DNA of 25,134 nucleotides from a virus. Lineage: Duplodnaviria > Heunggongvirae > Uroviricota > Caudoviricetes. The notes under the pieces were generated by a model that saw only the letters and a list, made by a program, of their open reading frames with translations, made no database searches and was not told the DNA's origin. Shown piece by piece: positions 12,257 to 25,134 of the stretch; positions within the stretch are counted from its first letter, which is position 1; every line of letters starts with the position of its first letter. The translations under genes were made by a program, and so were the position numbers. The stretch is from positions 1 to 25,134 of IMG/VR virus record IMGVR_UViG_2737471840_000004; one strand, given 5' to 3'.

Positions 12257-13255
12257 TTATCCGTTACCGCACGACGGTTTCTGCGTGATAAACGTTTCAA
12301 GCATCTTTTCCGCGATTGCCGACCAGGTGTGACACTGGACCTTTTCAGCATTTTTCACGCGATCAACGCGAGCAATAACCTCATCCCAATCAATCCGCGA
12401 CTTGATAACCATATGGTTCACCAACTCCAGGCGATCTGGCGGAAGGCAATCGGGCGGCGTTAATATCAACGCTCCACACATTGCCGCCTCAAGAACAGTT
12501 AATCCAAGGCTTTCGGGATGCGTAACGATAAAAACGTCACTCTTACGCAATTCAGCTGCAAATTCGGTTGCTGGTACCGGAGTCCGTCTGTATGGGGTTA
12601 CCGAAATATTCCCCAGCTCAATGGTAACCAATCCGTCATCGGTCAGCGTTCTGGCCTCATACGGAACGGTCAGGCGCTGAAGGTTCATAAGGATACTTAA
12701 GGAGTGATCAAACCCACTAACATCAAATGCCGCGTGGTCTACAAAAATACGCAGAACATCGTCTGTTTTGGTTTCCAGATGGAACAGCTCCTGATTCGCT
12801 GCCCATCCAACATGTTTGTTAAAACGATTATGACGCTCTAACCTGCCGGGATTATCCAGGTACCGCCAGGTATCATCGCGGACAGTAAAAGTAATATCGA
12901 CTGGTGCCGAATCCAGCATAGAACCGTCGTATACCTGGGCTACCCATCCAGTGAATCGACGACGCAGTTGCACGCCTATTTCCCTGGGCACCGTAGTAAA
13001 ATACCGCAATCCTGGCGCTAAAATGGCCTTCGCAGAACATGCGGTCGCAGCAGTCAACACAGCTTCAACATAATCCTCCGGGCTTTCGACGCCGGGGGAA
13101 TATGGACGATGGTATTGCAATGTTACCCCTGCCTCACTAAAGGCGCAGGCCAGGTTATAAGCCCACATTTCCGTATATGTTTTCACATCACTGATAGCTT
13201 CAAATTTTCGCCCAATGATCAGGATGTTCATCGGCTTTTCCTCATTCCATTGCAT
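12257..13255 (-). CDS. GT-B fold glycosyltransferase (GT4-like)
   Basis: 332-aa ORF; C-terminal HPESLGLTVLEAAMCGALILTP resembles the GT1/GT4 donor-binding signature; TAATG start/stop overlap with the DnaB gene. Confidence 0.75.
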   Translation of the reverse strand: MQWNEEKPMNILIIGRKFEAISDVKTYTEMWAYNLACAFSEAGVTLQYHRPYSPGVESPEDYVEAVLTAATACSAKAILAPGLRYFTTVPREIGVQLRRRFTGWVAQVYDGSMLDSAPVDITFTVRDDTWRYLDNPGRLERHNRFNKHVGWAANQELFHLETKTDDVLRIFVDHAAFDVSGFDHSLSILMNLQRLTVPYEARTLTDDGLVTIELGNISVTPYRRTPVPATEFAAELRKSDVFIVTHPESLGLTVLEAAMCGALILTPPDCLPPDRLELVNHMVIKSRIDWDEVIARVDRVKNAEKVQCHTWSAIAEKMLETFITQKPSCGNG

Positions 13256-14619
13256 TAATAATCCTCTTGCCAGTCAGCACCAGCATAGTTATCAAACCGT
13301 GAGTATTGGCCGTTAAAAGCCAATCTCACCGTGCCAATTGGGCCATTTCGTTGCTTTCCGATAATCACCTCGGCAATGCCCTTCATTTCGCTATCCGGGT
13401 GATAAACTTCGTCGCGATACAGAAACATGATCAGGTCTGCGTCCTGCTCAATTGCTCCTGATTCACGTAAATCTGAATTTACCGGTCGTTTGTCCGCACG
13501 CTGTTCAAGCGATCGATTAAGTTGAGACAATGCCACCACCGGTACTTGTAATTCCTTCGCCAAAGCCTTCAGTGAGCGAGAAATCTCGGCAATTTCCAGC
13601 GTTCGGTTATCTTGCAGCTCGGGGACGCGCATAAGTTGCAGGTAGTCGATCATAATCATGCTCAAACCACCATTTTCTTTATAAACACGACGAGCGCGGG
13701 AACGAAGCTCTGTAGGTGTCAGGGCGCTTGAGTCATCAATAAAAATATTCTGCTTGTCCAACAGAATCCCCATTGCGCCAGAAACCCGCGCCCAATCCTC
13801 GTCGTTAAGTTGCCCTGTTCGAATACGAGTCTGATCAACGCGTGCAAGAGAAGCCAGTGAGCGCATCATCAGCTGGTGGCTCGGCATCTCAAGGCTAAAA
13901 ACCAATACGGGCTTATCGTTACGGACTGCGGCATTTTCGACGAGATTCATCGCAAACGTAGTCTTCCCCATCGATGGGCGGGCGGCGACAATAATGAGAT
14001 CGGACGCCTGAAGTCCTGCTGTCTTCTTATTGAGATCGGTAAATCCGGTATCAAGCCCCGTTACACCATCATGCGGTCGCTGAAACAACTCTTCTATGCG
14101 AGATACCGTTGCATCGAGAATGCTGGCGATATCTTTTGGACCATTACCGCTCTTTTGTCGTTTTTCAGCTATTTCAAAAACGCGGCGCTCGGCCATATCC
14201 AGCAATTCATTGCTGCCCCTGCCATCCTGCGCATATCCAGCTTCAGCTATTTCATTTGCGACGGAAATCATTTCACGAACAACCGCGCGTTCACGAACGA
14301 TATCCGCATAAGCACAAATATTTGCCGCGCTGGGCGTGTTCTTTGACATCTCCGCAAGGTACGCAAAACCACCGGCGCGTTCTAATTTACCGTTCTGTTC
14401 AAGTGCTTCAGCAAGTGTTATCAAATCAATCGGTTTGCCATGACTTAATAACCTCTCCATCTCACTGAAAATTTCACGATGAGCACTGGTATAAAAATCA
14501 TCAGCAACTATACGATCTGCAACTTCATCCCAGCGGCAGTTATCAAGCATTAAGCCACCAAGTACAGCTTGTTCTGCACTAAGGGAGTTTGGCATGGATT
14601 CAAGAGGGGATGCAGACAT
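13255..14619 (-). CDS. dnaB: DnaB-family replicative DNA helicase
   Basis: Walker A ARPSMGKTTFAMNL; N-terminal SAEQAVLGGLMLD is DnaB-like; ATG 14619 preferred (GGAG upstream) over track GTG 14625. Confidence 0.9.
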   Translation of the reverse strand: MSASPLESMPNSLSAEQAVLGGLMLDNCRWDEVADRIVADDFYTSAHREIFSEMERLLSHGKPIDLITLAEALEQNGKLERAGGFAYLAEMSKNTPSAANICAYADIVRERAVVREMISVANEIAEAGYAQDGRGSNELLDMAERRVFEIAEKRQKSGNGPKDIASILDATVSRIEELFQRPHDGVTGLDTGFTDLNKKTAGLQASDLIIVAARPSMGKTTFAMNLVENAAVRNDKPVLVFSLEMPSHQLMMRSLASLARVDQTRIRTGQLNDEDWARVSGAMGILLDKQNIFIDDSSALTPTELRSRARRVYKENGGLSMIMIDYLQLMRVPELQDNRTLEIAEISRSLKALAKELQVPVVALSQLNRSLEQRADKRPVNSDLRESGAIEQDADLIMFLYRDEVYHPDSEMKGIAEVIIGKQRNGPIGTVRLAFNGQYSRFDNYAGADWQEDY

Positions 14620-14904
14620 TAGCACTCCACCCAGGCGTGCTGAATGTCAGATATAATCGGCATACTCAAATCACTCCTAACGATATGAGTCATCACCAGA
14701 AAATCAGGATTAATGCGCCGGACTCTTCCCGGCTGTCACACCGAATCGCCAGGATGGTGAGTCCCTGTATCCGCTATCCCTCCAACGGTGACTTGCACAT
14801 TCCGGCTACCTGGTTTGTTGCCTGAGCTAGGGGAAAAGGTAACCCCTTTAACGTCACCAGACCGCTAACGACGCATGTGCCAGACGCCGTGTTACAACCA
14901 AATA

Positions 14905-14980
14905 TGGTGGCCCCTACCGGACTTGAACCGGTGACCGTGCGATTATGAGTCGCCAGCTCTAACCACTGAGCTAAAGGGCC
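14905..14980 (-). tRNA. tRNA with CAU anticodon (Met, or Ile2 if lysidine-modified)
   Basis: Hand-folded 76-nt cloverleaf: GGCCCTT acceptor, GCTC/GAGC D-stem, anticodon loop CUCAUAA, TTCAAGT T-loop, encoded CCA. From memory it resembles ileX-type tRNA-Ile2. Confidence 0.85.
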
Positions 14981-14983
14981 GGA

Positions 14984-15091
14984 TTACTGTTTCCTAAGTG
15001 CTTCAATGGCGCTAACAATACCGCCTACAACTATGGCAACAATGATAATGAGAACAATTGGATACTTATCTGCAAAATCCCAGAAGCTCAT
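14984..15091 (-). CDS. mini membrane protein (35 aa)
   Basis: Hand translation MSFWDFADKYPIVLIIIVAIVVGGIVSAIEALRKQ; start overlaps the stop of the upstream mini-ORF; stop 3 nt before the tRNA. Confidence 0.4.
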   Translation of the reverse strand: MSFWDFADKYPIVLIIIVAIVVGGIVSAIEALRKQ

Positions 15092-15255
15092 CACTGATCC
15101 TTCGAGGCTGGTTTAAATATCGGCCATACCAATGTTACGGCTACTGCTACCAACGCCCCGTCGGATAAAACCGACAGGATTGTGCTGGTGAAATCCACCA
15201 GCACAGATAGCACGAGAAAAACCAAAGCCAGAATTAGACGTGCTTTTATAACCAT
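15091..15255 (-). CDS. mini membrane protein (54 aa)
   Basis: Hand translation MVIKARLILALVFLVLSVLVDFTSTILSVLSDGALVAVAVTLVWPIFKPASKDQ; ATG overlaps the TerB-like stop. Confidence 0.4.
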   Translation of the reverse strand: MVIKARLILALVFLVLSVLVDFTSTILSVLSDGALVAVAVTLVWPIFKPASKDQ

Positions 15256-15680
15256 CAGATATACTGTTCCAGTGGCAATTGAAGAGCCTGGGCAATTTTC
15301 TTCAATTGCTCCTGCTCTTCTGCCCCAATGCCATCCTGGTCAGCAATATCAATGCATAGGCACAGAACATCTACCGCATCATTAGTTCCAGACACGTCAG
15401 CCAGTTCACGTAAAGCCTGGGCATTCGCTCGGCGCGGCGAGGCTTCATATTGAGCGCGAATATTGGCGCTCATCTGGGCAATTTCACCGGAGAACGGCGC
15501 AAAGGCAGGAAGTGCTGCAATGGTTTTTTCCAATACTGCAATTTCTTTCGCATCGCAGGTGCCGTCAGAGTATGCAATGGAATATGCGCCCCAGACAGTC
15601 GCTTCCACCGCATCACGGTTTTCCATTTTCTTGACTCCGCCAGCCGCTTTGCGGAATTTCTTTTTGAGAATGCCGAGCAT
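15255..15680 (-). CDS. TerB-like domain protein
   Basis: SDGTCDAKEIAVLEKTI and IADQDGIGAEEQEQLKKIAQALQL match the paired TerB acidic motifs; alternative ATG at 15626 (GGAG upstream). Confidence 0.65.
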   Translation of the reverse strand: MLGILKKKFRKAAGGVKKMENRDAVEATVWGAYSIAYSDGTCDAKEIAVLEKTIAALPAFAPFSGEIAQMSANIRAQYEASPRRANAQALRELADVSGTNDAVDVLCLCIDIADQDGIGAEEQEQLKKIAQALQLPLEQYI

Positions 15681-16529
15681 TTATTAACCTCATTACTGGT
15701 TGGGAAATAAGGTTGCGGTGCCGGGTGCCTCCCGGTGTCCTTTGGCTGGTTATCCACCGTGGACGGGGAAATAAGGAGAAATAATGGACAGATATAACCA
15801 TTTCCCCGCGTGCGCTTAGCCGCATTCACCGCAACGGAAAGAGCATTCCTAGTGGACCTGTAGATTGGGATATGAACCCGTTACAGGAGAATGCTCTTAC
15901 CTGTTACGTGCTCCGTTTCGTGGAGCTAACGGCGGGTGATCGGGCCGCACCAGACTGGACTTATTTCAGCGTTATGCTCATGCCAGAGAATCAAACTGTG
16001 ATGGTCGGTGCTGAACTCCGACACAGGGTTGTAGCAAGCCCCGCAAAGCGCGCACTACTGTAGTTGCGGCACATCAGCCTGTGCATTCACCACAATGTTG
16101 AGAACACTGGTTGTCACGCTGCAACGCAACATTTATTCGTAGATTGGGATATGACCCCGTTACGCCAGTGTTCTCAACGTTGTAGTGCCGGTTACGGTTC
16201 CGGCCAGGCCTCTTCCTCAACGGGGTGTTCTCCATACGGACTACCGTTTATTGGTCGTTCCTGCGGTTTATGTTGTGAAGCCAGATGCTTATCTTCTGGT
16301 TGCTTCAAAGAGCTGCACTTCATCACAACGGTAAGAGCACTCGATGCATTTAAGCCAAGCCCCATAAGGGAGAATGCCCTTACCTGTTGTGTTGTGATGA
16401 CCGGTGCTGATCTCCGGCTTGCGGTTATTTCAGACTCTCACGGGCGTTTAATTGCCCCGCCGAACAGCTCTTTTCCGCAATAGCTGCAATGTCTTTCGCG
16501 CATCAGCCTGCGCATTCATCACAACGGTA

Positions 16530-16607
16530 AGGGTACTTCGTAGGGATTCGAACCCTCTGCCAAGCTCGGCGATCTCCGACGTCGCAAAATACCCTTACCT
16601 GTTGTGC
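16530..16607 (-). pseudogene. tRNA-like remnant (acceptor plus T-arm, no anticodon arm)
   Basis: Minus strand has GGTTCGAATCC T-loop and a TATTTTG/CGAAGTA acceptor-like pairing but only 27 nt where 41 are needed, and no CCA. Confidence 0.3.
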
Positions 16608-16683
16608 TGGTGCCGATTAACGGACTCGAACCGCTGACATCCTGCTTACAAGGCAGGCGCTCTACCAACTGAGCTAAACCGGC
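16608..16683 (-). tRNA. tRNA-Thr (anticodon UGU)
   Basis: Hand-folded 76-nt cloverleaf: GCCGGTT/AATCGGC acceptor, anticodon stem CCTGC/GCAGG, loop CUUGUAA, TTCGAGT T-loop, encoded CCA. Confidence 0.85.
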
Positions 16684-16685
16684 AT

Positions 16686-16761
16686 TGGCGATGGTGGATG
16701 GATTTGAACCATCGACCCGTTGATTAACAGTCAACCGCTCTAACCGCTGAGCTACACCATC
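16686..16761 (-). tRNA. tRNA-Asn (anticodon GUU)
   Basis: Hand-folded 76-nt cloverleaf: perfect GATGGTG/CACCATC acceptor, anticodon stem GTTGA/TCAAC, loop CUGUUAA, TTCAAAT T-loop, encoded CCA; 2 nt from tRNA-Thr. Confidence 0.85.
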
Positions 16762-17226
16762 ACTTGCCGGGTACGTCTCCGGCGAGGGCTTCCACCTCCG
16801 TATGCTTTTCGGCGCACCGCGCCCTGGCTGCAATTCGGTAACAGGGGATGCACAACCCTGGCTTCCAGCGTGATTAGCGCCTTCAGCATGACGGGATATA
16901 CCCGTAAATTCGTGGAACTGTACCCAAAGTGCTGTTAAGCACCGCTGTTACGCTGAAAAGAAAACGCAACAGGAAAGGACGCTGACCAACAGATGGCCCC
17001 TTCTCGTTCATCTGGTTAATCACACCAGCGCCCTTACCTGTTGTGCCTCCCCGTTCCCTAATACACAGACGGGGACACTCTGCGGTCGATTTTTTGACGG
17101 GGGACGACTCATACCCCGTGGCGTCTGGCTTCTTAGGCCGCTACCATCATCAGATCATCGTTTGCATTTACTTTAATGGTCAGTTTCTAAACCGCCGCAA
17201 AGTCGCTAACCATGACGAAAACCCTG

Positions 17227-17252
17227 AAAAAAACGCCCACCCGAAGATGGGC
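17227..17252 (-). terminator. rho-independent terminator on minus strand
   Basis: Minus strand GCCCATC-TTCG-GGTGGGC (7-bp stem with one G-U pair) followed by GTTTTTTT; in the plus sense the wobble becomes a C-A mismatch. Confidence 0.55.
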
Positions 17253-17409
17253 AAACTGGAAGCTCGTAACGCACTTCGGCGTTGCCACTTAGGCGCATGG
17301 TCAACCTGGCAACTCGGTGGTTTGTCTGGGAGGACTAGGCCCAGCCATGCTTACCGCCGCGCCTGTCGCGGCTAACAGCTAAATCGCTCTATAAATCACG
17401 ATTCATTGA

Positions 17410-17443
17410 GGCGATATTACACTAATAAATTTATTAGAGCAAT
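17410..17443 (-). promoter_or_regulatory. putative leftward promoter with palindromic operator
   Basis: Minus strand TTGCTC, 17 nt, TAATAT; the core motif is part of the perfect 16-bp palindrome CTAATAAATTTATTAG (17422-17437) and overlaps the last codons of the methyltransferase gene. Confidence 0.45.
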
Positions 17444-19698
17444 ATACCCAAAACGTCATGAGCTACACCTCGAGTGTCCCCCTTACAAGACACAGAACGT
17501 CTGGCAAAAAGAGGTTCCACTCTGAAGCCACTGTCATGATAAAGCTCTCTGATGTTTGGCGCGCCACTGTTAGTAATGAGAACCTTTGCACCTCGACGAT
17601 GAGCATCCGTCAACAGAGACACCAGGCGTTTTTGCTCTTCAAACTTAAAGTCATGACCGGAATAGTTCGTGAATCCCTCTGTATTTGGAAGCGGTTCATA
17701 CGGCGGATCGCAAAAGATGACATCTCCTTCTCCGGCAGCTTCAATCACCGCAGCAAAATCACCGCATACAAACTCAGACCGCCCTTCCGCACCGAGGAAG
17801 GCTTCCATCTCCTGTAATGGGAAATACGGAGTTTTATACTTCCCATAACCGACATTGAACTCACCGGCCTGGTTGTAACGCGTCAATCCGTTAAAACAAT
17901 GTCGGTTCAGGAACAAAAACGCCGCTGCGCGATGTAAATCATCATAGACTTGTTTGTTAAACGCATTCCGTACTGCCAGGTATCCTTCCTGTGTGTTGTA
18001 GTCCTGGAAGAAACGATGTGCCAGAGTGATAAGTGAATGCGCCTCGCGTTGCAGAGTCTTGTAAAAGTTAATCAGGTCAGCATTCACATCATTTAGCAGA
18101 TTTTCCTGGTATCCGGCATTCATGAAGACAGCTCCGCCACCAACGAAAGGTTCAATCAGGCGCTTCCCTTCTGGCAAATAGCGAAAGATTTGTTCCAGAA
18201 CACCAAATTTTCCACCAGCCCATTTGAATATGGACCGTTCGAATTCTGCCGCTGGTTTAACTTTTCGCTCTTTTGTTTCACTTCCTTCTTTCTGCCGACA
18301 TACGGCCTTAGTAATCCGATCGCCAATCCAGCGCATTACTGGTATTGCCATACTATTGCCGATCGCTTTGTAACGCGGTCCGTCAGCTGCAAGCATCGCG
18401 GCCTCTTCTTCGCTTAAATCTGGATAGTGATTGCGAAGATATGCCAGTTCATCTGAATTAACTTTTTTACGCTTTTCCGTCGGGATCAACGTATGCCCAT
18501 CAGGAAAACCTTGCAGCCTTTCACATTCGACAGGGGTAAGACGGCGGACAGCTACTTCTGCGTTTCTTACTTCATAGCAAACAGCTGTTGGATTTTTAGC
18601 CATTAGAGATGGTGAAGTATTCTTAGTTGCAGCATGTTGTGTACCGCTCATACGCTCAGGAAAAGCCAATGTAACAAGATGCTCATGGCTTTCTTGCTCA
18701 CGTGCCCGCAATGTACCATGCCCTTCTGACCAAAAACCTGCTCCTGTGCTGCTAAAAACGGCAAGGTCAGTGGCATCTTTAAAATCTCTTGCCTTTACTG
18801 TCGATGCGGTTTCATCGTCAATATATTCCCCAAATGCTGCCATCCTGAAAGCGTTTACGGCTTTCGTCGATTTCATACCGGGTGGCATGTCAGCGTGTAG
18901 GCATGGATTTAGGCTTTCGCCACTGATTGCAGCGCCATTTGCAATAATGGCGGAAGCGATTTCCTTCTTTTTTCGGCTCGGCGCAATATTCCGGCGCACG
19001 CCTTCGAACTCAAAAAGTACCGTTGCGGGATCGAGGTCTGTTCGAGCACTTGCGACAACAAACACGCGTCGGCGTCGTTGTGCCACTCCGAAGTATTGGG
19101 CATCAAGGATTCTCCAGGCCACCTTTCGCTGCGGTCCATAAATACAACCACACTGTGGCCACTTTGGAGCATGGCAACCGGTTTTGCCATCCCACCGCCA
19201 GAACGCGTTACTTTTTCCTGATTCAGGTCGATCACCTGGTTCAAATGGCGCATCTTCTCCAGCCAATCCGGCAAGGAAACATCCGAAGGCGTTATCTGCC
19301 GATGACAAAACTCCTGGGACATTTTCCCAGACGATAACTGTCGGTTTGAGAAATGACTCAGCCCGTTTGTCGTCAATTGCATTTGCAAGCTCCACATACT
19401 TTAAAGTTAGCGCGCCACGCTCATCATCAAGCCCACCACGTAATCCAGCGATACTGAATGCCTGACAAGGTGTTCCCCCGACGAGCACATCAGGGGATTC
19501 GATTTCCCCAGCCAGGACTTTTTTGGCAAGTTTTGTCATGTCGCCAAGGTTGGCGACATGGGGCCAGCGGTGCGCAAGAACGGCAGATGGAAAAGGCTCG
19601 ATTTCAGCAAACCACGCCGGACGCATACCCAACGGTTCCCAGGCAATACTCGCGGCTTCAATTCCACTGCAAACAGATCCATAGCACAGCTCTTTCAC
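17434..19698 (-). CDS. bifunctional DNA methyltransferase: N-terminal C5-cytosine MTase fused to C-terminal Dam-like N6-adenine MTase
   Basis: 754-aa ORF. N-terminal half has C5-MTase motifs ([48 protein letters not shown]); C-terminal ~270 aa has Dam-type FKWAGGK and DPPY. ATGA overlap with rdgC. Confidence 0.9.
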
Positions 19699-23635: not shown

Positions 23636-23830
23636 AAACGTTTCGCATTCAGAAGAGGGGCAATCGACTTTCTGGTTTCAGAAAGCCCTTCATCATAGAG
23701 AACTCCGATGAGTGCCAAATGCGGGAACTACGCCGCTAATTATGCTTAATTCTTGCTTTTAGCAGGCGGTGAATAAAAAGGTTGAAATTCATTTTCTTCC
23801 GGGCAAAAATGCCATTTCACACATTAGCTT

Positions 23831-23874
23831 TGCAGGACGACCTGCAAACGCTTCTTTCACCGGGGACGGCCCCA
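23831..23874 (+). promoter_or_regulatory. guanidine-II riboswitch (mini-ykkC) upstream of sugE/gdx
   Basis: Two hairpins with ACGR tetraloops: tgcagg-ACGA-cctgca (23831-23846) and gggg-ACGG-cccc (23862-23873), 15-nt linker, then GGAG and ATG at 23892. Confidence 0.6.
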
Positions 23875-23891: not shown

Positions 23892-23938
23892 ATGTCCTGG
23901 ATCGTTTTATTAATTGCAGGTTTGCTCGAAGTTGTCTG
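23892..23938 (+). pseudogene. sugE: sugE/gdx 5' fragment, interrupted by IS insertion
   Basis: MSWIVLLIAGLLEVV matches the SugE/Gdx N-terminus; the frame then runs into the IS end GTAAGCG at 23938 where the conserved Trp codon would be. Confidence 0.7.
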
Positions 23939-25134
23939 TAAGCGTCAACGGAGCACCGTATTGACGCTTATTTATTGGTGAGTACTACGTTCCATGGCAG
24001 GAGTTCGTCAACTCGGTTGGAAGGCCATTCCGGCAGTACGCTCAGGATATGGCGCATATACGCTTCCGGATCGATACCGTTCAGACGGCAGGTGCCGATC
24101 AGCCCGTACAACAGTGCTCCACGCTCGCCGCCGTGATCGCTGCCAAAGAACATAAAGTTTTTCTTTCCGAGACAGACTGCACGAAGCGCTCTTTCCGCAG
24201 CATTATTATCCGCCTCCGCCAGACCGTCATCACTGTAATAACAGAGGGCATCCCACTGATTCAGTACATAGCTGAACGCTTCGCCCAGTCTGGATTTTTT
24301 CGACAGCGTACCATTCTTCTCCACCATCCATTCATGCAGCGACGTCAGTAACACTTTGCTTCGCTGCTGCCTGACGGCAAGACGCTCTGACTCCGGTAAT
24401 CCCCGTATTTCATCCTCGATGGCGTACAGTTCACTGATTCGCTTCAGGGCTTCTTCTGCCGTCGCACTTTTGCTGCTGATGTATACATCGTGGATTTTTC
24501 GCCGGGCATGGGCCCAGCACGCAACTTCTGTCAGTGCACCACCTTCACGTTCTGCACTGAACAACCTGTCGTAACCTGTGAACGCATCCGCCTGCAGGAT
24601 ACCCCGGAAGGGGCGGAGGTGTTGCTCCGGGTGTTTCCCCTGCCGGTTCGGCGAGTACGCGAACCAGACCGCTGGAGGAGATGACGAACCCACATTGCGA
24701 TCATCCCGGACATACGTCCAGATACGCCCTGTTTTCGCCTTTTTCTGACCCGGTGCCAGTACCTTTACCGGTGTGTCATCAGTGTGAACCTTGCGGGTGT
24801 TCATTACATAACGGTACAGGGCATCATTCACCGGTGTCATTAACTGGCAGCACGCGTCAACCCAGTTGGAGAGTAAGGCCCGGCTCAGTTCGACACCCTG
24901 GCGGGCAAAGATTTCACTCTGACGATACAGTGGCAGATGTTCGCAGTATTTTCCCGTTAACACGCGGGCAAGTAATCCGGGGCCCGCGATACCACGCTCT
25001 ATCGGGCGGGACGGCGCCGGTGCTTCAACAATACAGTCACATTTTGTACAGGCTTTTTTTACCCGTTCTGTGCGGATCACTTTCAGGGCACTGCTCACCA
25101 GTTCCAGCTGTTCAGCGCTGACTTCCCCCAGATA
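23938..25134. mobile_element. IS66-family insertion sequence, right end only (continues beyond right edge)
   Basis: Terminus begins GTAAGCGTCAACGG (IS66-family ends begin GTAA); contains a minus-strand IS66 transposase ORF whose stop lies 30 bp inside the end. Confidence 0.8.
23968..25134 (-). CDS. IS66-family transposase (TnpC), C-terminal portion
   Basis: Contains CWAHARRK and DDTPVKVLAPGQKKAKTGRIW; the frame stays open upstream of the track start (a GTG at 25098) to the window edge, so the N-terminus is outside the window. Confidence 0.9.
   Translation of the reverse strand, partial: YLGEVSAEQLELVSSALKVIRTERVKKACTKCDCIVEAPAPSRPIERGIAGPGLLARVLTGKYCEHLPLYRQSEIFARQGVELSRALLSNWVDACCQLMTPVNDALYRYVMNTRKVHTDDTPVKVLAPGQKKAKTGRIWTYVRDDRNVGSSSPPAVWFAYSPNRQGKHPEQHLRPFRGILQADAFTGYDRLFSAEREGGALTEVACWAHARRKIHDVYISSKSATAEEALKRISELYAIEDEIRGLPESERLAVRQQRSKVLLTSLHEWMVEKNGTLSKKSRLGEAFSYVLNQWDALCYYSDDGLAEADNNAAERALRAVCLGKKNFMFFGSDHGGERGALLYGLIGTCRLNGIDPEAYMRHILSVLPEWPSNRVDELLPWNVVLTNK

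What the first reader, a model, noticed from the sequence alone, without database searches (positions are those of the whole stretch)
14905..15680. TerB-like protein, two mini membrane proteins and a tRNA joined with almost no spacers
A TerB-like gene and two tiny single-pass hydrophobic ORFs (54 and 35 aa, found by hand) are linked by shared-nucleotide stop/start overlaps, and the last stop is 3 nt before a CAU-anticodon tRNA. Such tight coupling implies stoichiometric co-expression. TerB domains are associated with membrane stress and phage-defence contexts, so a TerB plus mini-membrane-protein module inside a replication operon is unusual.
Basis: partly seen in the sequence, partly recalled or inferred. 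Interest (0 to 1): 0.5.

Follow-up and report, generated by a model that had tools for sequence, protein, structure and literature searches.

The report
Phage P1 tciABC cassette and tRNA-Ile
This is the long-annotated tciA-tciB-tciC-trnI stretch of the phage P1 ban operon, a dispensable, swappable accessory cassette whose function is still untested, so it is real but not new.

Summary
On the minus strand lie a 141-aa TerB protein (15255-15680), a 54-aa DUF3927 protein (15091-15255) and a 35-aa hydrophobic ORF (14984-15091). They are joined by two TGATG one-base overlaps. A CAU-anticodon tRNA follows 3 nt later (14905-14980).

The window is a P1-like phage-plasmid, 98% identical to P1 and JL22. 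These are the annotated genes tciA, tciB, tciC and trnI of the C1-repressed ban operon. So the finding is already known.

- The tRNA is tRNA-Ile2 (ileX-like), not tRNA-Met.
- The TerB assignment holds: it passes the Pfam threshold, and a family profile hits solved TerB 2JXU at E=6e-13.
- CRISPRi in the literature scores all four genes non-essential.
- P1 relatives such as RCS47 replace exactly this 716-nt block with an SPFH gene.

New context from comparison: TerB+DUF3927 is a tightly coupled pair found in P1-like, SSU5-like, lambdoid, N4-like, Erwinia jumbo and Pseudomonas phages. In two Vibrio phages the TerB gene instead sits next to a TerC or a Na/Ca-exchanger gene. That points to a membrane cation-handling role, which is inferred and not shown. 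tciC occurs only in the P1/P7/D6 lineage and is weakly constrained.

The parts
17414..17459 (-). P1ban/P2ban promoters overlapping the bivalent C1 operator Oban(ab) (former Op72); start of the ban operon
   Evidence: The P1-annotated sequences are found exactly in the window.
17218..17319 (-). DicF-like region ending in a terminator-like hairpin (17253..17234 plus a T run)
   Evidence: 97/102 identical to the P1 'dicF-like region'; terminator scan. No Rfam match reached the gathering score.
16686..16761 (-). tRNA-Asn (GTT)
   Evidence: ARAGORN and Rfam.
16608..16683 (-). tRNA-Thr (TGT)
   Evidence: ARAGORN and Rfam.
15714..15833 (-). STnc100-like RNA element just upstream of tciA; it forms the left boundary of the swappable cassette
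   Evidence: Rfam RF02076 at 39.2 bits, below the gathering score of 47, E=2.3e-6. The flank is conserved at 99% in RCS47.
15255..15680 (-). tciA: 141-aa TerB-family protein with a GAGG ribosome-binding site 8 nt upstream
   Evidence: Pfam TerB above cut-off; PHROG 632 at E=7e-62; 100% identical to P1 TciA; profile hit to 2JXU; AF2 six-helix model with a disordered basic N-terminus.
15091..15255 (-). tciB: 54-aa DUF3927 membrane protein; its start shares one base with the tciA stop (TGATG)
   Evidence: PF13064 at E=2.7e-29; PHROG 1470. D21, S28, D32, G33 and P45 are invariant in 59 sequences. dN/dS about 0.25.
14984..15091 (-). tciC: 35-aa hydrophobic ORF, likely single-pass; AAGGA ribosome-binding site; its start shares one base with the tciB stop
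   Evidence: PHROG 23152 at E=1.9e-26 and annotated in P1. The ORF is kept in P7 and SJ46, and in D6 in diverged, unannotated form. dN/dS 0.13-0.64.
14905..14980 (-). trnI: tRNA-Ile2 (anticodon CAU, ileX-like, CCA encoded), 3 nt after the tciC stop
   Evidence: ARAGORN and Rfam; 89.5% identical to K-12 ileX/ileY, and RefSeq labels identical plasmid copies tRNA-Ile; P1 record annotates trnI.
14990..15705 (.). Extent of the exchangeable cassette (tciABC with the tciA ribosome-binding site)
   Evidence: RCS47 is 99% identical to the window on both sides (13500-14989 and 15706-17499). In between it carries 1088 nt with one SPFH/Band_7 gene.
14620..14904 (-). 285-nt untranslated spacer between trnI and ban
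   Evidence: Read from the sequence. Positions 14720-14903 are 80% identical to a segment of lambdoid phage mEp460.
13255..14619 (-). ban: DnaB-like replicative helicase
   Evidence: P1 annotation; ORF list.
12257..13255 (-). dbn: last gene of the operon, with weak glycosyltransferase-like similarity
   Evidence: P1 annotation; Pfam matches below cut-off.

Best explanation
Identity (shown). This is the tciA-tciB-tciC-trnI segment of the ban operon of a P1-like phage-plasmid.

Expression route (annotated, not measured here). The only promoters annotated on this strand upstream of tciA are P1ban/P2ban, which overlap the C1 operator. A transcript from there would run through a DicF-like RNA, tRNA-Asn and tRNA-Thr, the antisense of plp and upl, tciABC, tRNA-Ile2, ban and dbn.

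Translation (inferred from sequence). TciA has its own good ribosome-binding site. TciB has a poor one and probably depends on termination-reinitiation at TGATG. TciC has an AAGGA site plus the same overlap.

RNA processing (inferred). RNase P cleavage at the tRNA 5' end would leave the tci mRNA ending 3 nt after the tciC stop and would separate it from the ban mRNA.

Function (inferred, roughly 0.3-0.4 likely). TciA is a cytoplasmic TerB helical bundle with two conserved acidic DG-x5-E motifs and a conserved basic N-terminal tail. It probably docks on a small inner-membrane partner made of TciB, plus TciC in the P1 lineage. Together they would adjust divalent-cation or membrane homeostasis of the infected cell. 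It is an accessory function, dispensable in the laboratory, carried as a swappable cassette. tRNA-Ile2 separately supplies decoding of the AUA codon, which P1 genes use often.

The confidence figure below refers to the identity and architecture, not to the function.
For: Identity:
- The window is 98.1-98.3% identical to P1 and JL22 over 3 kb, with tciA, tciB, tciC, trnI and ban annotated there.
- The operator and promoters are found exactly in the window.
- The P7 record states that Op(ban) controls the tRNA genes.
- No other promoter-like site lies upstream of tciA on this strand.

Gene families:
- TerB.
- DUF3927.
- TciA protein was detected by mass spectrometry in P1 preparations (PMC9024508).
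- tciA, tciB, tciC, trnI, ban and dbn are all scored non-essential by CRISPRi (PMC10695390).

Cassette behaviour:
- Exact swap boundaries against RCS47.
- Listed as a variable region, lost in about half of P1 subgroup 1 elements (PMC9603915).

Conserved coupling of TerB and DUF3927:
- Seen in P7, D6, SSU5-like plasmids, lambdoid JLK-2012 and Fostie, N4-like SP-058 and Pollock, Erwinia phage ChrisDB and Pseudomonas phage ZY21.
- Seen in 13 of 15 genomic DUF3927 loci.

Cation link:
- In Vibrio phage BUCT194 the TciA-like TerB directly follows a TerC protein (PF03741, E=7e-39).
- In Vibrio phage D517 it directly precedes a Na/Ca-exchanger family protein (PF01699, E=1.4e-27).
- TciB keeps two invariant Asp residues inside its hydrophobic stretch.

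tRNA: ATA makes up 8.9 per 1000 codons in ten window ORFs, including 7 of 13 Ile codons in gene 5.
Against: - No experiment assigns a function to these genes.
- There is no direct evidence that TciB or TciC is translated.
- No true TerB-DUF3927 fusions were found that would prove contact. All of the top 120 DUF3927 clusters are stand-alone, and the one 196-aa fusion is a singleton, probably a frameshift.
- The distant Erwinia homologue of TciB lacks the two Asp residues.
- Pseudomonas phage PMBT3 has TerB with no membrane partner next to it.
- The TerC and Na/Ca-exchanger neighbours were each checked in one record.
- The AF2 monomer model of TciB is a single 46-residue helix, so its topology is open.
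- The structural match of the TciA model to PDB is weak: the best hit is 2H5N at E=0.019, TM 0.52-0.56.
- tciC shows weak constraint between its two alleles (dN/dS 0.64).
Confidence: 0.9

Rival explanations
1. It is a lysogenic-conversion moron. The prophage expresses tciABC to give its host tellurite resistance, colicin resistance or phage exclusion, as the ter operon of IncHI2 plasmids does.
For: TciA belongs to the TerB family. This reading is the basis of the gene names and is repeated in reviews. The cassette is variable among P1-like elements, as cargo genes often are. Outside P1 the TerB+DUF3927 pair ends in its own hairpin, as morons often do.
Against: The only annotated promoters upstream are repressed by C1 in the lysogen. 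No TerC, TerD or TerE partner is present, and the D6 authors call the operon incomplete. The same pair occurs in strictly lytic N4-like, jumbo and Pseudomonas phages, which have no lysogen to protect. No PADLOC defence model matches.
Confidence: 0.2
2. It is a lysis-timing or membrane-energisation modulator. The small membrane proteins and TerB would act on the inner membrane to delay or tune holin triggering.
For: In lambdoid prophages the pair lies between the antiterminator Q and the holin. Fostie has a holin two genes downstream, and L021 has a Phage_holin_8 gene directly after it. The alternative cassette in the P1 slot is an SPFH membrane-scaffold protein.
Against: In P1 the cassette sits in an early, C1-controlled operon far from the lysis genes. 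In N4-like phages it lies among early or replication genes. CRISPRi knock-down gave no plating defect.
Confidence: 0.15
3. Only tciA, and perhaps tciB, is a real gene. tciC is a chance ORF in the leader that precedes the tRNA.
For: tciC occurs only in P1-like phages (10 records). It is 35 aa long and has dN/dS of 0.64 between its two alleles. RefSeq does not annotate it on plasmids. No peptide evidence was found.
Against: The frame is intact with a conserved AAGGA site and start/stop overlap in all 8 P1/P7-type loci. D6 keeps a 37-aa ORF with the same M-x-F-W...D-K-x-P motif, a hydrophobic core and a basic tail, although its 37-aa product shares only about a third of its residues with the P1-type TciC. 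Substitutions are conservative hydrophobic swaps. PHROG 23152 covers it end to end.
Confidence: 0.2

Closest known systems
Bacteriophage P1 tciA-tciB-tciC-trnI (ban operon), GenBank AF234172 / NC_005856
   Same: TciA is 100% identical and TciB is 96% identical. Gene order, overlaps, the 3-nt spacer, the tRNA, the C1 operator and ban are all the same.
   Different: The window carries the second tciC allele, shared with SJ46 and some plasmids. It differs from P1 at 9 of 35 residues (13 of 108 nt), against 2 of 426 nt in tciA. The plp region follows the JL22 variant.
TerB of the terZABCDEF tellurite-resistance operon (Klebsiella TerB, PDB 2JXU)
   Same: Same Pfam family. The profile aligns over almost the full length with 2JXU. 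Both are all-helical with paired acidic motifs.
   Different: No TerC, TerD, TerE or TerZ genes are present. The partner is a 54-aa DUF3927 protein. Identity to 2JXU is low, and a single-sequence search does not find it. The tellurite phenotype is untested.
TerB next to cation-transport membrane proteins in Vibrio phages (TerC in BUCT194; Na/Ca exchanger family in D517)
   Same: A TciA-like TerB (31-34% identity) sits directly beside a membrane protein gene.
   Different: Those partners are large polytopic transporters. TciB and TciC are tiny and have no transporter fold assigned.
Cargo slots with tRNA genes in lambdoid late operons (between Q and the lysis genes)
   Same: JLK-2012 has Q, then tRNA-Asn, tRNA-Thr and tRNA-Gly, then tciA and tciB. 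P1 has the same tRNA-Asn and tRNA-Thr followed by tci.
   Different: In P1 the block is under the C1-repressed ban promoter and is followed by a helicase, not by lysis genes.
SPFH/Band 7 cassette of RCS47-type P1-like phages
   Same: It occupies exactly the same slot between the STnc100-like element and trnI, and is also predicted to be membrane-associated.
   Different: It is a single 275-aa gene with no sequence relation to tciABC, and it leaves 27 nt before the tRNA.

Membership tests
P1 ban-operon tciABC-trnI segment | High nucleotide identity and the same gene order as the P1 reference | tested here: met
   98.1% identity to P1 over 94% of a 3-kb query and 98.3% to JL22 over 100%. The annotation is colinear.
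P1 ban-operon tciABC-trnI segment | C1-controlled operator Oban(ab) and P1ban promoter upstream on the same strand | tested here: met
   Exact matches at 17414-17459.
TerB (PF05099) | Profile score above the curated cut-off | tested here: met
   28.4 bits against 24.4. All 7 diverse homologues match, best E=2.9e-16.
TerB (PF05099) | Relationship to a solved TerB structure | tested here: met
   The profile of 7 homologues hits 2JXU_A 'TerB' at E=6.1e-13, profile positions 14-137 against chain residues 20-144.
TerB (PF05099) | Predicted fold matches TerB-like structures | tested here: inconclusive
   AF2 model has pLDDT 84.8 and six helices. The Foldseek top hit is 2H5N with prob 1.00 but E=0.019 and TM 0.52-0.56. 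2JXU is not among the 50 matches shown.
TerB (PF05099) | Confers or contributes to tellurite resistance | not testable with these tools
   No experiment was found in the searched literature.
ter operon (terZABCDEF) | TerC and TerD-family genes in the same locus | tested here: not met
   Between dmt and ban the P1 record lists only tRNA genes, plp, upl and tciABC. The D6 authors also note that the operon is incomplete.
DUF3927 (PF13064) | Profile score above the curated cut-off over the full length | tested here: met
   101.3 bits against 25, residues 2-54 on profile positions 1-53.
Known anti-phage defence systems (PADLOC-DB) | Match to any defence-system protein model | tested here: not met
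   No hits for TciA, TciB or TciC at E up to 1.
tRNA-Ile2 (lysidine tRNA, ileX/ileY type) | CAU anticodon with a body sequence of ileX type rather than Met type | tested here: met
   Anticodon CAT. 89.5% identical to the K-12 chromosomal gene annotated tRNA-Ile, and identical plasmid copies are annotated tRNA-Ile. P1 annotates it as trnI, 89% identical to ileX.
tRNA-Ile2 (lysidine tRNA, ileX/ileY type) | C34 modified to lysidine by TilS, so that the tRNA reads AUA | not testable with these tools
   This needs RNA mass spectrometry or genetics.

The most novel reading that the evidence does not exclude
TerB plus DUF3927, with TciC added in the P1 lineage, could be a minimal phage-borne unit for handling divalent cations. 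The tiny membrane protein would oligomerise through its polar stripe with two invariant aspartates to bind or conduct Ca2+ or Mn2+. The translationally coupled TerB domain would sense or gate it from the cytoplasmic side. Diverse temperate and lytic phages would use this to reset ion homeostasis in the infected cell. Vibrio phages would reach the same end by pairing TerB with a full TerC or Na/Ca-exchanger protein.
Probability: 0.25. Interest if true: 0.55.

Novelty: already known. Interest (0 to 1): 0.18.

Why it matters
As a discovery it matters little, because the genes, their overlaps and the tRNA are in the P1 reference annotation and all are dispensable in the laboratory.

What remains open is what a TerB protein does in a phage. 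The pair TerB+DUF3927 is widespread: 537 DUF3927 clusters in Enterobacterales, and it occurs in at least six phage groups, including strictly lytic ones. Its neighbours in Vibrio phages are cation transporters. [quoted passage not shown] The precise cassette boundaries also mark a natural cargo slot in P1-like phage-plasmids.

Tried and rejected
- NCBIfam gave no meaningful hit for any of the three proteins.
- PADLOC gave none, so a defence-system reading has no model support.
- A single-sequence search of TciA against PDB found only insignificant EF-hand proteins (E=0.14). I do not claim an EF-hand.
- I looked for natural TerB-DUF3927 fusions as evidence of physical contact. There were none among the top 120 DUF3927 clusters. 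The single 196-aa fusion, P0003, is a one-member cluster and probably a frameshift at the TGATG junction.
- I expected TciB to model as a two-helix hairpin. The AF2 monomer model gave one continuous helix, so I leave the topology open.
- Foldseek did not give a significant PDB match for the TciA model.
tblastn with TciC found only P1-like phages.
- The original P1 genome paper could not be read, because it is not held.
- A literature search for 'tciB' alone returned unrelated papers. 'DUF3927' returned only one passing mention.
- The Rfam guanidine-II hit looked odd for a phage. It turned out to be the leader of a truncated sugE/gdx gene next to an IS66 transposase, in a cargo insertion.
- The similarity of the trnI-ban spacer to lambdoid phage mEp460 implies a rearrangement that I did not resolve.

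Full report
**1. What is there**

The features all lie on the minus strand.
- A 141-aa ORF at 15255-15680.
- A 54-aa ORF at 15091-15255.
- A 35-aa ORF at 14984-15091. A GTG one codon upstream would make it 36 aa.
- A 76-nt tRNA with anticodon CAU at 14905-14980.

The two gene junctions both read TGATG, so each stop shares its A with the next ATG. The last stop (TAA) is followed by TCC and then the first base of the tRNA.

**2. Identity**

- A 3-kb query around the finding is 98.3% identical to Escherichia phage JL22 and 98.1% identical to phage P1.
- In the P1 record the four features are tciA, tciB, tciC and trnI. They lie between the tRNA-Asn and tRNA-Thr genes plus plp and upl on one side, and ban (DnaB-like helicase) and dbn on the other.
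- The bivalent C1 operator Oban(ab) and the P1ban/P2ban promoters occur exactly at 17414-17459 of the window. The P1 'dicF-like region' occurs at 17218-17319 (97/102) and ends in a terminator-like hairpin.
- No other promoter-like site was found upstream of tciA on this strand, and the P1 record lists none.
- The P7 record states that Op(ban) controls the tRNA genes.
This is the published annotation, not a new observation.

**3. The three proteins**

TciA:
- It passes the Pfam TerB cut-off (28.4 against 24.4 bits) and matches PHROG 632 end to end.
- Seven homologues spanning 29-84% identity all hit PF05099.
- Their profile hits the solved Klebsiella TerB 2JXU at E=6.1e-13 over nearly the whole length.
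- The AF2 model (pLDDT 84.8) has a disordered residue 1-21 tail and six helices.
- Foldseek's best PDB match is weak (2H5N, E=0.019, TM 0.52-0.56).
- Residues invariant across the diverse set include G3, K7 and K8 in the basic tail, and D39, E46, D116 and E122 in two DG-x5-E motifs.

TciB:
- It is a full-length DUF3927 protein (E=2.7e-29).
- The family has 537 clusters, all about 51-54 aa, stand-alone and from Enterobacterales.
- D21, S28, D32, G33 and P45 are invariant in 59 sequences.
- Its hydrophobic stretch runs from residue 7 to 47, with basic residues at both ends.
- AF2 models it as one 46-residue helix. Single-span versus hairpin is therefore unresolved.

TciC:
- It matches PHROG 23152.
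- It has one hydrophobic core (residues 11-29), an acidic/aromatic N-terminus and a basic C-terminus.

None of the three matches a PADLOC defence model.

**4. Are the mini-ORFs genes?**

- Pairwise dN/dS is 0.04 for tciA (P7 against D6) and about 0.25 for tciB.
- For tciC it is 0.13 within one allele and 0.64 between the two alleles.
- The tciC frame, its AAGGA ribosome-binding site and the overlap are intact in all eight P1/P7-type loci examined.
- D6 keeps an unannotated 37-aa ORF with the same M-x-F-W...D-K-x-P motif, hydrophobic core and basic tail. It is followed 9 nt later by an unannotated tRNA-Ile2.
- TciC was found only in P1-like phages.
- TciA peptides were reported in P1 preparations (PMC9024508). 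I found no direct evidence for TciB or TciC protein.
- My estimate is that tciB is real (above 0.95) and tciC is probably real (about 0.75-0.8).

**5. The tRNA**

- ARAGORN names it Met from the anticodon alone.
- It is 89.5% identical to the E. coli K-12 chromosomal genes annotated tRNA-Ile. Identical plasmid copies are annotated tRNA-Ile in RefSeq, and P1 annotates it as trnI.
- It is therefore the AUA-reading tRNA-Ile2 type. Lysidine modification cannot be tested here.
- ATA makes up 8.9 per 1000 codons in ten window ORFs. From my own knowledge this is roughly twice the E. coli average.

**6. A swappable cassette**

- RCS47 is 99% identical to the window at 13500-14989 and at 15706-17499.
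- In between, RCS47 replaces the 716 nt of tciABC with 1088 nt holding one SPFH/Band 7 gene (PF01145, E=1e-30). That leaves 27 nt before the tRNA.
- The left boundary coincides with an STnc100-like element, which scores below the Rfam threshold.
- The literature lists tciABC as a variable region, lost in about half of P1 subgroup 1 elements (PMC9603915).
- Alleles are mosaic. The 141-aa TciA and the 144-aa P7/D6 TerB are only about 30% identical, and they combine freely with the two tciC alleles.
- Between the window and P1, tciC differs at 13 of 108 nt, against 2 of 426 nt in tciA and 0 of 76 nt in the tRNA.
- CRISPRi scored tciA, tciB, tciC, trnI, ban and dbn as non-essential (PMC10695390).

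**7. Wider distribution**

The TerB+DUF3927 pair, with 0-4 nt between or shared by the two genes, occurs in the following places.
- P7 and D6.
- SSU5-like phage-plasmids of E. coli and Klebsiella.
- Lambdoid JLK-2012, where the order is Q, tRNA-Asn, tRNA-Thr, tRNA-Gly, tciA, tciB.
- Fostie, between a Q-like gene and the holin.
- N4-like Salmonella and E. coli phages.
- 13 of 15 DUF3927 loci from bacterial species representatives.
- Erwinia jumbo phage ChrisDB, after tRNA-Trp and tRNA-Cys, in divergent form.
- Pseudomonas phage ZY21, before tRNA-Arg.

Outside the P1 lineage the pair is followed by a hairpin, not by TciC.

In two Vibrio phages there is no DUF3927.
- In BUCT194 the TerB gene directly follows a TerC-family gene (PF03741, E=7e-39).
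- In D517 it directly precedes a Na/Ca-exchanger family gene (PF01699, E=1.4e-27).
- One Pseudomonas phage has TerB alone.

**8. How it most likely works**

Shown:
- The identity of the genes.
- The operon context and the conserved translational coupling.
- The family assignments.
- Dispensability, from the literature.
- The cassette behaviour.

Inferred:
- TciB translation depends on TciA termination. Its own ribosome-binding site is poor, whereas those of tciA and tciC are good.
- RNase P would cut the transcript 3 nt after the tciC stop.
- TciA would work at the cytoplasmic face of the inner membrane with TciB, and with TciC in P1.
- Its partners elsewhere are a TerC protein and a CaCA-family exchanger, and TciB keeps two buried aspartates. 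I therefore favour a role in divalent-cation or membrane homeostasis of the infected cell (about 0.3-0.4).

The common reading as a host-protecting tellurite or colicin resistance gene is weakened on three counts.
- The upstream promoters are repressed by C1 in the lysogen.
- TerC and TerD partners are absent.
- The same pair occurs in strictly lytic phages.

A lysis-timing role is a further rival, suggested by the position next to holins in lambdoid prophages.

**9. Verdict**

The feature is already known, annotated in the P1 reference and discussed since. Interest is low. The only open point is the untested function of a widespread phage TerB module, and the comparative data above give a concrete hypothesis for it.

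Noticed in passing
window 23829-23873 (+), with 23892-23945 and 23968-25098 (-): Rfam guanidine-II riboswitch hit (47.2 bits against a gathering score of 32). It is followed by the start of a sugE/gdx-like ORF (MSWIVLLIAGLLEVV...) that is cut short. Next to it is an IS66-family transposase (PF03050, E=5e-98). The window stops matching P1-like phages after about 23134, so this is a cargo insertion and not phage biology.
   Followed up: partly
window 15714-15833 (-): STnc100-like RNA match (39.2 bits, below the gathering score of 47, E=2.3e-6) directly upstream of tciA. It contains the hairpin CCGGGAGGCACCCGG, which also appears near tciAB in lambdoid loci (L005, L016). It marks one boundary of the swappable cassette.
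   Followed up: partly
window 14984-15120: Divergence hot spot. Against P1, the tciB 3' end and tciC carry 13 of 108 nt changes (9 of 35 residues), while tciA has 2 of 426 and the tRNA has 0 of 76. Two tciC alleles assort independently of the two tciA/terB alleles, which share only about 30% identity.
   Followed up: partly
L007 (RCS47) 1491-2578; L008 (MH422554) 1510-2337: P1-like phages that lack tciABC carry a 275-aa SPFH/Band 7 protein in exactly the same slot. It is annotated variously as lipoprotein, serine protease or SPFH protein.
   Followed up: partly
L010 (phage D6) about 2687-2885: The D6 record lacks annotation for a tciC-like 37-aa ORF that overlaps the tciB stop by 4 nt. It also lacks the tRNA-Ile2 (CAU) gene 9 nt downstream of that ORF.
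   Followed up: yes
window 14720-14903 and 16390-16538; L030 (mEp460) 2001-2386: Two window segments about 1.5 kb apart, one just after trnI and one at the 3' end of the plp region, lie 60 nt apart in lambdoid phage mEp460 (81% and 96% identity). Their relative order does not fit a simple insertion. A 40-nt piece also repeats at 16069-16108. This suggests an old rearrangement around the tRNA and tci block.
   Followed up: partly
window 17218-17319 (-): DicF-like region (97/102 identical to P1) with a strong terminator-like hairpin (GCCCATC-TTCG-GGTGGGC plus seven T). It sits between the P1ban promoter and the tRNA genes, so transcription of tciABC and ban needs read-through. No Rfam family reached its threshold there.
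   Followed up: no
L033 (Vibrio phage BUCT194) 1-1326; L035 (Vibrio phage D517) 1501-3081: TciA-like TerB genes in Vibrio phages sit directly beside a TerC-family gene or a Na/Ca-exchanger family gene. Phage-encoded cation transporters paired with TerB may deserve their own study.
   Followed up: partly
protein P0003 (196 aa): A single database protein fuses TerB and DUF3927 (141 + 54 aa, 100% identical to TciA). It is a one-member cluster, most likely a frameshift or assembly error at the TGATG junction.
   Followed up: no
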